This document shows positions 24,001-27,000 of a DNA stretch of 64,000 nt, in pieces (positions within the stretch are counted from its first letter, which is position 1; each line of letters starts with the position of its first letter). The stretch spans positions 2,356,001 to 2,420,000 of the forward strand of contig JAWMAR010000352.1 in the NCBI GenBank assembly GCA_036785375.1, in the 5' to 3' direction. This stretch comes from Leucoraja ocellata (Eukaryota). A program made the position numbers.

Positions 24001-27000
24001 TGGTATATAAGGTCATAGACGATAGGTGCAGAATTAGGCCATTCAGCCCATCAACTCTACTCTGCCATTCAATCATGGCTGAACAATCTCTCTCTCCTAA
24101 CCCCTTTCTTCTGCCTTCTCCCCATATCCACTGGCACCTGTACTAATCAAATCAACACCAAAAGCTGGAGAAACTCAGCAGGCCAGGCAGCATCTCTGGA
24201 GAGAAGGAATGGGTGACATTTCAGATCGAGAACCTTCTTCAGACTGAAAGTCACGGGAAAGGGAAACGAGAGATATAGACGATGATGTAGAGAGATGTAT
24301 GACCTACCTGATCTCCTGGTTGCTAAACACATTAATTCTCCTTCCCATTCCCACACTGAACTTTCTGTCCTCGGACACCACCATTGTCAGAGTGAGGTTA
24401 AATGCAAATTGGAGGATCAGCATCTCATATTTTGTTTGGGCAGTTTACAGCCCAGTGGTATGTATATTGATTTCTCTAACTTCAGGTAGCCCCGGCATTC
24501 CCTCTCTCTCCATCCCTCCCCCACCCAAGTCTCATCAGCTTCTCGTTCTCACCCAACAAACTACAAACAACGGCCTGTTCCCTTTATCATCGTTAATCTT
24601 TTGCATATCTTTCATTCTTTGTTCTATATGTCTCTACACCATCGTCTATATCTCTCATTTCCCTAAACATAGAACTAGTGTGTGAATGTGTGATCGATGG
24701 TTGGCGCTGACTCCGTGGGCTGAAGGGCCTATTTCCGCAGTGGATCTCTAAAGTCTGAAGACTAAAGTCTTTTACAAGGGACACCGAAAGTGCCGCAAAA
24801 CTGGTTGCAGAATTTTATCTGTTTGCAGACGCCCCCCAGAATCTCTCAATCACTTCCCCCGACAATGTGAACGATTCCTGGGTCAGTATAAAGGAAGGAA
24901 ACTCTGCAGCGATTTTCTGCTCCCTCCAAAGTTTCCCGGCGTCTAACCTGACGTGGAGACATCAGTGTCACGCTGAACACACAACGAGCTGTGGATAGAC
25001 ATAGACATAGCCATAGAAAATAGGTGCAGGACGAGGCCATTCGGCCCTTCGAGCCAGCACCACCATTCATTGTGATCATGGCTGATCGTCCCCAATCAAT
25101 AACCCGTGCCTGCCCTCTCCCCATATCCCTAAATTCCACTAGCCCCTAGAGCTCTATCTAACTCTCTCTTAAATCCATCCAGTAACTTGGCCTCCACTGC
25201 TCTATGTGGCAGGGAATTCCACAAATTCACAACTCTCTGGGTAAAAATGTTTTTTCTCACCTCAGTCCTAAATGGCTTCCCCTTTATTCTAAGACTATAG
25301 CCCCTGGTTCTGGACCCGCCCAACATTGGGAACATTTTTTGTGCATCTACCTTGTCCAGTCCTTTTATAATTTTACATGTTTTTATAAGATCTCCCCTCA
25401 ACCTTCTAAACTCCAGTGAATAAAAGCCTAGTCTTTTCAATTCCCTCAGCTGACAGGGAAGGATGCTGGGGTCTATCAGTGTGTGGCGGAGAATGAGCAT
25501 GGGACAGCAGAGAGGGATGTGACCCTCACTGTAGAATGTGTGTAGATACACACTGTCATGTCTATGTAAAGGCAGATGGTTTATTGGCCCATGAGAGATG
25601 CTGGAANNNNNNNNNNNNNNNNNNNNNNNNNNNNNNNNNNNNNNNNNNNNNNNNNNNNNNNNNNNNNNNNNNNNNNNNNNNNNNNNNNNNNNNNNNNNNN
25701 NNNNNNNNNNNNNNNNNNNNNNNNNNNNNNNNNNNNNNNNNNNNNNNNNAATCGCCACACACACGCTTTCTCTCTCTCTCTCTTTTTCTCTCTCACACAC
25801 ACACTCACTCACTCAAACACAAACAGACACACACACATTCTCAAGATCTTGGAGAAAACCAACGCAGGTCACGGGGCGAACGTGCAAAGTCCGTAGAGAA
25901 AGGCCTCGTCAGGATTGAACCCGAGTCTCTGGCGCTGTGAGTCAGGAGCTCTACTCACTGCGCCACCGTGCTGCCCACATCTACAGCCTTGTTTGTTCCC
26001 CACCTGTATGTAGCCTGTCTCACCTCTGCCTGACATTGTTGGATTATATTGGTCTTTCCACCCAGAAACCTTCAATGCCTCCCTCTATGTATCGTCACTC
26101 CTCACGTTGCTTAAACACAAAGTGCTGGAGCATCACAGTGGGGCAGGCAGTGTCTTTAGAGTCATAGAGTCTTACAGCATGGTCACAGGTCCTTTGGCCC
26201 AACTTGCCCACACCGGCCAACAAGCCCCATCTATACTCGTCCCACCTGCCCTACTTCGGCCCATATCCCTGCATACATGCCCTATCCATGTTACCTATCC
26301 AACTATTTTTTAAACGTTGCAATGGTCCCAGCTCGTTCCTTATAAAAGGACTGGACAAGCTAGATGCAGGAAAAATGTTCCCAATGTTGGGCGAGTCCAG
26401 AACCAGGGGCCACAGTCTTAGAATAAAGGGGAAGCCATTTAAGACTGAGGTGAGAAAAATCTTTTTCACCCAGAGAGTTGTGAATTTGTGGAATTTCCTG
26501 CCACAGAGAGCAGTGGAGGCCAAATCACCAGATGGATTTAAGAAACAGTTAGATAGAGTTCCAGGGGCTAGTGGAATCAAGGGATATGGGAAGAAGGCAG
26601 GCACGGGTTATTGATTGGGGACGATCAGCCATGATCACAATGGTTGGCGGTGCTGGTTCGAAGGGCCGAATGGCCTCCTCCTGCACCTATTTTCTATGTT
26701 TCAATGTTGCATACACTCACCACACTCTGCATGAAAACAAAGTTACCCCTCAGGATCCATTAAAGATAACTCAGCGAGCCTGTCTTGCTGAGTTATTCCA
26801 GTTTTTTGTGTCTACACAATAACAATAATGTCATCCATTGTGTACACATACTAGATAAGGCAATAACGTTTAGTGCAAGAAAAAAACAGTAAAGACCGAT
26901 CAAAGATTAATTTGGGACTGCTCTCTGGTTGTGGTAGGATGGTTCAGTTGCCGGATAACAGCTGGGAAGAAACTGTCCTTGAATCTGGAGCTATGCATTT

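What the first reader, a model, noticed from the sequence alone, without database searches (positions are those of the whole stretch)
24829..25537. Loss of an Ig domain: CR1-disrupted exon shortens a 5-Ig MAG-like receptor to 4 Ig domains
Seen: this exon is a close paralogue of the intact exon at 39781-40062 but has 2-bp and ~11-bp deletions, a ~440-bp antisense CR1 insert and a weakened donor. All neighbouring exons are phase 1-1 and still open. Known: MAG has V plus 4 Ig domains, and symmetric Ig exons can be skipped in frame. Inference: the receptor survived by skipping this exon, which would shorten its reach and could alter cis versus trans sialic-acid binding.
Basis: partly seen in the sequence, partly recalled or inferred. 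Interest (0 to 1): 0.65.

Follow-up and report, generated by a model that had tools for sequence, protein, structure and literature searches.

The report
Broken Ig exon in skate Siglec
One immunoglobulin-domain exon of a skate sialic-acid-receptor-like gene has been destroyed by a jumping-gene insertion and small deletions, while the rest of the gene still reads through, in a gene family where the number of such domains commonly varies.

Summary
Window 24829-25537 is an I-set Ig exon homologous to 39781-40062. It carries a 2-bp and an 11-bp deletion, a ~440-bp antisense 5'-truncated CR1-like LINE tail, and a GTGAGT>GTGTGT donor change. It is 709 nt long (mod 3 = 1) and has 14 in-frame stops.

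The host gene has eight other exons: signal, V-set, C2, I-set, C2, TM and two cytoplasmic. All are open with AG/GT borders, and their lengths sum to 1635 nt, which is in frame.

The gene is not MAG itself. It belongs to a large elasmobranch MAG-architecture Siglec-like family whose I-set exon occurs 1 to 10 times per model.

The break is not private. Amblyraja radiata model XP_032870550.1 shows the same 2-bp frameshift and reads into the same LINE tail, but it lacks the 11-bp deletion.

The two window exons are not each other's closest relatives (AU p = 0.0019), so a former five-Ig state is plausible.

Skipping would give a V-C2-I-C2 form, as seen in 12 of 59 family models. Skipping itself, and purifying selection on the remaining exons, are untested. 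The whole-gene pseudogene reading remains open. Interest is modest.

The parts
22155..22194 (+). Signal-peptide exon (ATG at 22155, ends in phase 1)
   Evidence: tblastn of P0057/P0009 residues 1-17. The 13 residues are 100% identical to four models. Donor GT confirmed.
22828..23196 (+). V-set Ig exon (369 nt, phase 1-1) with the FFRVE arginine
   Evidence: Pfam V-set 3.2e-10. Best solved relatives are MAG Ig1 at 1.6e-16 and sialoadhesin at 1.1e-15, with the Arg and Cys residues aligned. 28 of 28 family-conserved columns are kept.
23653..23946 (+). First C2-set Ig exon (294 nt, phase 1-1)
   Evidence: Pfam C2-set_2 2.8e-10. PDB hits are CD33 domain 2 at 5e-7 and MAG Ig2 at 2e-4. 93.8% identical to P0057/P0058. 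30 of 30 conserved columns kept.
24829..24998 (+). 5' piece of the broken I-set exon. It holds the 2-bp deletion (after 24962) and the 11-bp deletion (after 24981). The first in-frame stop is at 24996.
   Evidence: The first 44 codons are 93.2% identical to A. radiata P0057.
24999..25440 (-). 5'-truncated CR1-like LINE 3' end (about 440 bp), antisense to the gene. Its hexamer-repeat tail abuts the exon at 24999.
   Evidence: A minus-strand frame reads the ORF2 C-terminus. There are 23 other matches in the window, at 75-92% identity for the longer ones. Full-length relatives in the window carry EEP + RT domains, and some carry a GDSL-esterase ORF1.
25441..25537 (+). 3' piece of the broken I-set exon, followed by the weakened donor GTGTGT
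   Evidence: 91% DNA identity to 39966-40079. Pfam I-set 7.3e-7. Donor comparison.
25607..25749 (.). Run of N (143), starting 70 bp after the broken exon. Not filled.
39781..40062 (+). Intact I-set Ig exon (282 nt, phase 1-1)
   Evidence: Pfam I-set 2.8e-11. It matches MAG Ig3 at 32 bits and MAG Ig4 at 26.7 bits. 95.7% identical to A. radiata P0028. 27 of 27 conserved columns kept.
44781..45074 (+). Membrane-proximal C2-like Ig exon (294 nt, phase 1-1)
   Evidence: MAG Ig5 is the only solved match below E 0.01, at 7.6e-9. 85.6% identical to P0032. 22 of 22 conserved columns kept.
48827..48923 (+). Transmembrane exon (97 nt, phase 1-2)
   Evidence: tblastn of P0032. Splice sites.
59585..59651 (+). 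Cytoplasmic exon 1 (67 nt, phase 2-0)
   Evidence: 95.5% identical to P0058. Splice sites.
60929..61120 (+). Last exon: cytoplasmic tail with VEYAEL (ITIM signature) and the stop codon
   Evidence: 84.1% identical to P0058. Motif match. The signature is quoted from passages of PMC7226832.

Best explanation
The window holds one gene of a skate. Its nearest proteins are from Amblyraja radiata and Leucoraja erinacea, and it is not human. The gene encodes a Siglec-like receptor with a MAG-type ectodomain: signal peptide, V-set, C2, two I-set exons, a membrane-proximal C2, a TM segment, and a tail with an ITIM signature.

The first of the two I-set exons (24829-25537) is a pseudo-exon. A 5'-truncated CR1-like LINE inserted antisense into its middle, and a 2-bp deletion shifted its frame. 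Both lesions are older than the split from an A. radiata counterpart. An 11-bp deletion and a donor +4 A>T change came on top of these.

These steps are shown: the lesions, their sharing with A. radiata, the intact state and matching phases of the eight other exons, and the fact that four-Ig V-C2-I-C2 receptors are a normal architecture in this family.

These steps are inferred. The enlarged, stop-filled exon is left out by the spliceosome, because a 709-nt exon with a weaker donor is poorly defined. The gene then makes a 544-codon four-Ig receptor with a stalk one domain shorter than its five-Ig relatives.
For: - Lesions.
- Shared break: on the window's intact exon, P0057 (XP_032870550.1/551.1) residues 236-279 align to 39783-39914, and residues 280-295 align to 39917-39964 at 93.8% in a frame shifted by 2. 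So that gene has the 2-bp deletion but not the 11-bp deletion. Its last 13 residues align to window 24982-25020, across the exon/LINE junction (sequences).
- Gene integrity: all nine exons have AG/GT borders. The lengths without the broken exon sum to 1635 nt (mod 3 = 0); with it the total is mod 3 = 1. Family-conserved columns are kept in V 28/28, C2 30/30, I-set 27/27 and C2d 22/22.
- Architecture: 12 of 59 models are V-C2-I-C2 and 7 of 59 are V-C2-I-I-C2. A. radiata P0028 joins the C2 exon directly to the intact-type I-set.
- Former five-Ig state: in the tree, the broken exon pairs with P0057 (support 90/87) and the intact exon pairs with P0028 (99/92). Holding the two window exons together as a clade is rejected, p-AU 0.0019.
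- Both sides of the N run are nearest to the same A. radiata model, P0058: V-C2-broken exon upstream, and C2d-TM-tail downstream.
Against: - There is no transcript evidence of any kind. The A. radiata proteins are XP_ predictions and disagree with one another. P0057 ends in the LINE tail. P0058 joins the broken exon's 5' half to the second half of the last Ig exon. P0066 goes from C2 straight to the TM segment.
- No sign of purifying selection could be shown. The broken exon itself still keeps 24 of 25 assessable conserved columns, so conservation of the other exons discriminates poorly.
- The C2 exon plus 61 codons of read-through intron together are 94% identical to L. erinacea P0070. By my own count, exon and intron differ from P0070 at about the same rate.
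- dN/dS between the broken and intact exons is 0.47, with differences spread 11/8/13 over the three codon positions.
- The acceptor of the broken exon is intact, so inclusion followed by a premature stop is possible.
Confidence: 0.55

Rival explanations
1. The whole gene is an unprocessed pseudogene, or is on the way to becoming one. The broken exon is simply the first visible lesion, and the other exons are open only because skate sequence changes slowly.
For: - The broken exon has lost only 1 of 25 assessable conserved residues outside its lesions, so decay is slow.
- C2 exon divergence from L. erinacea P0070 is about the same as that of the translated intron next to it (plus my count).
- The one private indel in 269 nt of dead exon, against none in 1635 nt of live exons, is not a significant difference. 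My estimate is p about 0.14.
Against: - Eight exons totalling 1635 nt carry no stop, no frameshift and no lost splice dinucleotide.
- All 107 family-conserved columns in the four Ig exons are kept.
- Several A. radiata cluster members with the same upstream exons keep full TM and tail reading frames. These are predictions, though, and predictions favour open frames.
Confidence: 0.25
2. The broken exon is still recognised through its intact acceptor. The transcript then ends at the stop at 24996. The result is either a nonsense-mediated-decay substrate (a poison exon) or a short secreted V-C2 product, as in A. radiata model P0057.
For: - The acceptor and its pyrimidine tract are intact.
- P0057 is exactly such a model and carries two accession numbers.
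- There is an AATAAA at 25419 inside the insert.
Against: - A 709-nt internal exon with a weakened donor is poorly defined. This is general knowledge, not tested here.
- A half Ig domain lacking its second cysteine is unlikely to fold.
- One AATAAA in 600 bp is within what chance would give.
Confidence: 0.12
3. The N run at 25607-25749 joins two different paralogues, so the broken exon and the intact exon belong to different genes.
For: - The gap lies 70 bp after the broken exon.
- A 92%-identical inverted copy of the insert sits at 26340-26698, just beyond the gap.
- The family is tandemly clustered in A. radiata, with five models on one 13.4-Mb contig.
Against: - There is no second V, C2 or C2d exon anywhere in the 64 kb.
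- Exons on both sides of the gap are nearest to the same A. radiata model, P0058.
- P0028 links an identical C2 sequence to the intact-type I-set on an independent scaffold.
Confidence: 0.05
4. The ancestral gene had four Ig domains. The broken exon is an extra duplicate that never served, so nothing was lost.
For: - I-set exon number varies from 1 to 10 in the family.
- A four-row clade (both window exons plus their two A. radiata partners) is not rejected, p-AU 0.10.
- DNA homology between the two exons stops within 17 bp of each border.
Against: - The two window exons as sisters is rejected, p 0.0019.
- The broken exon keeps an intact acceptor, 24 of 25 assessable conserved residues, and a dN/dS of 0.47 against its partner. 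That pattern fits an exon that was once under selection.
- The same two exon types occur in the same order, both intact, in A. radiata P0010/P0059.
Confidence: 0.05

Closest known systems
Myelin-associated glycoprotein (MAG, Siglec-4); mouse ectodomain structure 5lf5
   Same: The domain order matches exon by exon. The V exon matches Ig1 (1.6e-16), the I-set exon matches Ig3 and Ig4, and the last Ig exon matches Ig5 only (7.6e-9). MAG has five Ig domains in an extended conformation (abstract of PMC5150538). Fish MAG carries an ITIM (passages of PMC7226832), and this tail has VEYAEL.
   Different: This is not a one-to-one MAG orthologue. At least 17 A. radiata models of the family turned up, with 1-10 I-set repeats each. 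The C2 exon is nearer to CD33 domain 2 than to MAG Ig2. The two I-set exons are far more alike than MAG Ig3 and Ig4 are to each other.
Amblyraja radiata predicted proteins XP_032870550.1/551.1 (P0057), XP_032870542.1 (P0058) and XP_032872725.1 (P0028)
   Same: P0057 and P0058 have the same upstream exons: V 82-83%, C2 93.8%, and the broken exon's first 44 codons 93.2%. Both show the same 2-bp frameshift reading. P0057 has the same LINE tail. P0028 has the intact-type I-set at 95.7%.
   Different: P0057 lacks the 11-bp deletion. None of these is identical to the window, so the window is another species or another paralogue. The three models treat the dead exon in three different ways.
CD33 exon-2 skipping (a human Siglec isoform lacking the IgV domain)
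   Same: An in-frame Ig exon of a Siglec is left out and a shorter receptor results (abstracts of PMC6712934 and PMC9954446 in the listing).
   Different: In CD33 the skipped exon is intact, skipping is regulated by a SNP and splicing factors, and the domain lost is the ligand-binding one. Here a stalk exon is physically destroyed and skipping has not been observed.
CR1-clade LINE insertions
   Same: Related copies in the window carry an EEP endonuclease plus RT ORF2 and a GDSL-esterase ORF1. The insert is 5'-truncated with a short hexamer-repeat tail. That these features mark the CR1 clade is recalled.
   Different: No repeat library was on hand, so the name CR1 is a clade-level inference and not a match to a curated consensus.

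Membership tests
Siglec (sialic-acid-binding Ig-like lectin) family | N-terminal V-set domain with the conserved ligand-binding arginine | tested here: met
   Pfam V-set 3.2e-10. The R of FFRVE aligns with the R of MAG YYFRGD and of sialoadhesin YNFRFE. That these are the binding arginines is recalled.
Siglec (sialic-acid-binding Ig-like lectin) family | Siglec-type cysteine pattern in the V-set domain | tested here: met
   The cysteines of GLCARIPC and NDCSL align with those of MAG GTCVSIPC and RNCTL. The role of the pattern is recalled.
Siglec (sialic-acid-binding Ig-like lectin) family | C2/I-set domains, one TM segment, and a tyrosine motif in the tail | tested here: met
   VEYAEL fits [I/V/L/S]-X-Y-X-X-[L/V] as quoted in PMC7226832.
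Siglec (sialic-acid-binding Ig-like lectin) family | Binds sialylated glycans | not testable with these tools
   Needs recombinant protein and a glycan array.
MAG / Siglec-4 orthologue | Five Ig domains (V plus four) | tested here: inconclusive
   There are five Ig exons only if the dead one is counted, and four usable ones.
MAG / Siglec-4 orthologue | Conserved one-to-one gene, not a multigene cluster | tested here: not met
   At least 17 A. radiata models, five of them on one 13.4-Mb contig, with 1-10 I-set repeats across the family.
CD33-related Siglecs | Orthology to the mammalian CD33-related cluster | not tested
   The C2 exon is nearest to CD33 domain 2. PMC7226832 says bony-fish genomes lack CD33-related Siglecs and does not mention cartilaginous fish. 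No tree against mammalian Siglecs was built.
CR1-clade LINE (the insert) | ORF2 with EEP endonuclease and reverse transcriptase | tested here: met
   Met for the full-length relatives at 31932-35051 and 52023-55028. The insert holds only the last ~440 bp and matches such copies at 75-78%.
CR1-clade LINE (the insert) | ORF1 with an esterase domain, and a short-repeat 3' tail | tested here: inconclusive
   GDSL esterase at 55004-55984 (8.7e-14) and, more weakly, at 36844-37515. The hexamer-repeat tail is read directly at 24999-25030. The link of these features to CR1 is recalled, and no repeat library was searched.
Pseudo-exon (exon lost from a live gene) | Lesions that bar translation through the exon | tested here: met
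   14 in-frame stops and a length of 709 nt, mod 3 = 1.
Pseudo-exon (exon lost from a live gene) | The exon is absent from mature mRNA while the gene is expressed | not testable with these tools
   No transcript data for this species were accessible.

The most novel reading that the evidence does not exclude
Elasmobranchs have built a large inhibitory receptor family out of the MAG (Siglec-4) ectodomain plan. It could be a counterpart of the mammalian CD33-related Siglecs, which bony fish are said to lack. Stalk length in this family is tuned by gain and loss of one modular 94-codon I-set exon, giving 1-10 copies. On this reading the window catches one such loss in the act. A LINE-killed exon is kept across loci or species. 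It may still be used as a poison exon, or to make a short secreted V-C2 decoy.
Probability: 0.12. Interest if true: 0.55.

Novelty: new member of a known kind. Interest (0 to 1): 0.32.

Why it matters
This is a clean, datable example of a transposon removing one module from a modular immune-type receptor without killing the gene outright. It also flags three inconsistent automatic gene models in Amblyraja radiata that stem from the same dead exon.

The wider context may matter more than the exon. A many-membered MAG-architecture Siglec-like family with ITIM-type tails and 1-10 stalk domains exists in skates, rays and sharks. Five full-text searches turned up no paper that describes it. The library lacks most subscription journals, so this is not proof that the family is unpublished.

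Tried and rejected
- Search for a second gene copy. I looked for second copies of the V, C2 and last Ig exons in the window, to test for a tandem gene pair or a mis-join. None was found.
- Search for intron homology around the two I-set exons, to size the duplication. Homology ends 16-17 bp outside each exon, and everything beyond is non-colinear repeat matches. The duplication unit cannot be defined.
- Internal cryptic donors. No GT site inside the broken exon reaches 7 of 9 consensus matches, apart from the annotated donor. By my own reading of that consensus, the junction used by the P0058-type model would score about 3 of 9 in the window, so I did not adopt it.
- dN/dS. It could only be computed between the two window exons (0.47). 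No skate genomic DNA was available for the other exons.
- Conserved-column retention. It turned out to discriminate poorly, because the dead exon also retains nearly all its conserved columns.
The joined (spliced) coding sequence was not assembled, searched or folded; only exon lengths and phases were added up. So no junction-spanning search for skipped transcripts was made.
- The N runs were left as they are.
- No supplements were consulted.
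Full report
**What the window is.** The window is repeat-rich vertebrate DNA with two runs of N, at 11301-11447 and 25607-25749. Every protein relative found is from cartilaginous fish. The nearest are from the skates Amblyraja radiata and Leucoraja erinacea. The window is not human. No annotated protein is identical to what the window encodes. The best matches are 95.7% for the intact I-set exon, 93.8% for the C2 exon and 83% for the V exon. So the window is from another skate species, or from an unannotated paralogue.

**The observation.** A local alignment pairs 24827-24998 and 25441-25554 with 39779-40079. 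The upper copy lacks intact bases 39914-39915 and 39936-39946, and it carries an insert at 24999-25440. The homology is far beyond chance:
- tblastn gives 9.8e-18 and 3.3e-14 for the two halves.
- blastn gives 1e-44 and 5e-42.

The donor reads AAT|GTGTGT against AAT|GTGAGT in the intact copy. That is one change at +4, or 7 of 9 versus 8 of 9 matches to a consensus I recalled. As it stands the exon is 709 nt (mod 3 = 1) with 14 in-frame stops, the first at 24996.

**The insert.** It is the 3' end of a LINE, antisense to the gene.
- A minus-strand frame through it reads the C-terminal part of ORF2.
- It matches 23 other places in the window.
- Full-length relatives in the window carry endonuclease and reverse-transcriptase domains. 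One of them has a GDSL-esterase ORF1, and another has a relic of one.
- Its end next to the exon is a short hexamer repeat.

I recall these features as typical of the CR1 clade. No repeat library was available, so "CR1-like" is as far as the evidence goes.

**The gene.** All exons lie on the + strand:

| Exon | Coordinates |
|---|---|
| Signal peptide | 22155-22194 |
| V-set | 22828-23196 |
| C2 | 23653-23946 |
| Broken I-set | 24829-25537 |
| Intact I-set | 39781-40062 |
| Membrane-proximal C2-like | 44781-45074 |
| TM | 48827-48923 |
| Cytoplasmic 1 | 59585-59651 |
| Cytoplasmic 2, with stop | 60929-61120 |

Every border is AG/GT. Without the broken exon the lengths sum to 1635 nt, which is in frame; with it they do not. 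No second V, C2 or last-Ig exon exists in the 64 kb.

**What kind of receptor it is.** Against solved structures:
- The V exon is nearest to MAG Ig1 (1.6e-16) and sialoadhesin (1.1e-15). The arginine of FFRVE and the V-set cysteines align.
- The C2 exon is nearest to CD33 domain 2 (5e-7), with MAG Ig2 weaker.
- The I-set exon matches MAG Ig3 (32 bits) and Ig4 (26.7 bits).
- For the last Ig exon, MAG Ig5 (7.6e-9) is the only hit below E 0.01.

MAG has five Ig domains in an extended conformation and dimerises through Ig4-Ig5 (abstract of PMC5150538). The tail holds VEYAEL. This fits the ITIM signature quoted in PMC7226832, whose passages also say that fish MAG carries an ITIM and that bony fish lack CD33-related Siglecs. 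So "MAG-like" is a fair description of the plan.

**It is not MAG itself.** The intact exon finds 57 proteins and the V exon finds 64. They carry automatic names such as MAG-like, Siglec-5/6/8/10/12/13 and CD33-like. They come from skates, rays, a sawfish, a sawshark and several sharks, and at least 17 are from A. radiata alone. I examined 59 models: the 57 hits plus two cluster mates. The I-set unit occurs once in 31 of them, twice in 20, and three to ten times in 8. Twelve models are V-C2-I-C2 and seven are V-C2-I-I-C2. Change of stalk length by whole I-set exons is therefore the family norm.

**The break is shared.** A. radiata P0057 (XP_032870550.1/551.1) has the same signal, V, C2 and first 44 codons of the broken exon. 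It then reads a frameshifted stretch and ends. On the window's intact exon, its residues 236-279 align to 39783-39914, and residues 280-295 align to 39917-39964 at 93.8%, in a frame shifted by two. So that gene has the 2-bp deletion but not the 11-bp one. Its last 13 residues align to 24982-25020, across the exon/LINE junction. P0058 (XP_032870542.1, same 13.4-Mb contig) has the same frameshifted reading after WRH. It then jumps into the second half of the last Ig exon and continues through TM and tail. So the LINE insertion and the 2-bp deletion predate the split of these loci. The 11-bp deletion belongs to the window's lineage. The order of the first two events cannot be told.

**Was there ever a five-Ig gene?** I built a tree of I-set units from 46 of the 107 units found, plus the two window exons. 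The 46 are all the skate units and five outgroup units from four proteins; the other ray and shark units were left out.
- The intact exon pairs with A. radiata P0028 (support 99/92).
- The broken exon pairs with P0057 (90/87), outside the starred 11-row clade that holds the intact exon.
- Holding the two window exons together costs 41.9 log-likelihood units, p-AU 0.0019.
- Holding the four rows together is not rejected, p 0.10.

I named these groups after seeing the tree, which weakens the test. A. radiata P0010/P0059 carries one unit of each kind, both intact, in the same order. Outside its lesions the broken exon keeps 24 of 25 assessable conserved columns, and dN/dS against its partner is 0.47.

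**Is the shortened gene alive?**

Evidence for:
- Eight clean exons in matching phase.
- All 107 family-conserved columns are kept: 28 + 30 + 27 + 22.
- The predicted product has a common family architecture.
- P0028 joins the C2 exon directly to the intact-type I-set.

Evidence against, or neutral:
- There are no transcripts. The A. radiata models are predictions and disagree with each other: P0057 is truncated, P0058 has a hybrid domain, and P0066 goes from C2 straight to TM.
- The dead exon is almost as well conserved as the live ones.
- The C2 exon and 61 codons of read-through intron together are 94% identical to L. erinacea P0070. By my count, there are about 6 differences in 104 exon codons and 4 in 62 intron codons. 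The exon is therefore not visibly slower than neutral sequence.
- The V exon is much more diverged, at 72-83%. That could mean diversifying selection, or exchange among paralogues.

I therefore give the live four-Ig reading 0.55 and the pseudogene reading 0.25.

**The gap.** The N run starts 70 bp after the broken exon. A 92%-identical inverted copy of the insert lies just beyond it, at 26340-26698, so a mis-join deserves a thought. Against a mis-join:
- No spare exons exist in the window.
- Exons on both sides are nearest to the same A. radiata model, P0058.
- P0028 links an identical C2 sequence to the intact-type exon on an independent scaffold.

**Verdict.** But the gene is one member of a large, modular Siglec-like family in which domain number changes often. 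The lesion is older than this locus. Skipping and its functional effect remain untested. This is a new member of a known kind of event, and its interest is modest. The elasmobranch family itself is the more interesting lead. Five full-text searches found no description of it. The library lacks most subscription journals.

Noticed in passing
window 22227-22693: A 33-bp minisatellite, 14.2 copies at 96% matches, fills intron 1 directly after the signal-peptide exon.
   Followed up: no
window 20116-20764: About 650 bp of C-rich, CA-rich low-complexity repeats lie 1.4 kb upstream of the start codon. Stop-free proline-rich frames run through it.
   Followed up: no
window 31932-35051 (-): An uninterrupted 1039-codon LINE ORF2 with endonuclease and reverse-transcriptase domains sits in the 14-kb intron. 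A relic esterase ORF1 lies at 36844-37515. The element is possibly still active.
   Followed up: partly
window 52023-55984 (-): A second, near-complete LINE lies between the TM exon and the first cytoplasmic exon. It has a 326-codon ORF1 with a GDSL esterase (8.7e-14), a 555-codon endonuclease frame and a 445-codon RT frame. The last two are separated by one break at 53360/53361.
   Followed up: partly
window 26340-26698: An inverted copy of the exon-breaking insert, 92% identical and so much closer than any other copy (all others over 300 bp are 78% or less). It lies just across the N run. The two copies could form a hairpin, and may be the reason for the assembly gap.
   Followed up: no
window 25419: One AATAAA lies inside the insert, about 420 nt after the first stop of the broken exon. 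It could serve a truncated transcript, or it could be chance.
   Followed up: no
window 48827-48923: The TM segment contains a glutamate (IAELAG). It is shared with A. radiata P0032 but not with P0058 or P0066. This is unusual for a receptor with an inhibitory-type tail.
   Followed up: no
window 23947-24128; proteins P0068, P0070: Annotated skate proteins P0070 (L. erinacea) and P0068 (A. radiata) read through the C2 donor into the intron. P0070 aligns to the window through 24128, into repeat-derived sequence. P0068 ends with the broken exon's start read in another frame. These are annotation artefacts. They happen to show that the intron is shared across genera.
   Followed up: partly
window 22828-23196: The V-set exon is only 72-83% identical to its nearest relatives, while the adjacent C2 exon is 90-94% identical to the same models. 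The V exon also carries a 6-bp in-frame insertion (KE) near its start, relative to the homologues.
   Followed up: partly
window 49137-50252 (-): A 371-codon reverse-transcriptase-like frame from a different retroelement family lies just after the TM exon.
   Followed up: no
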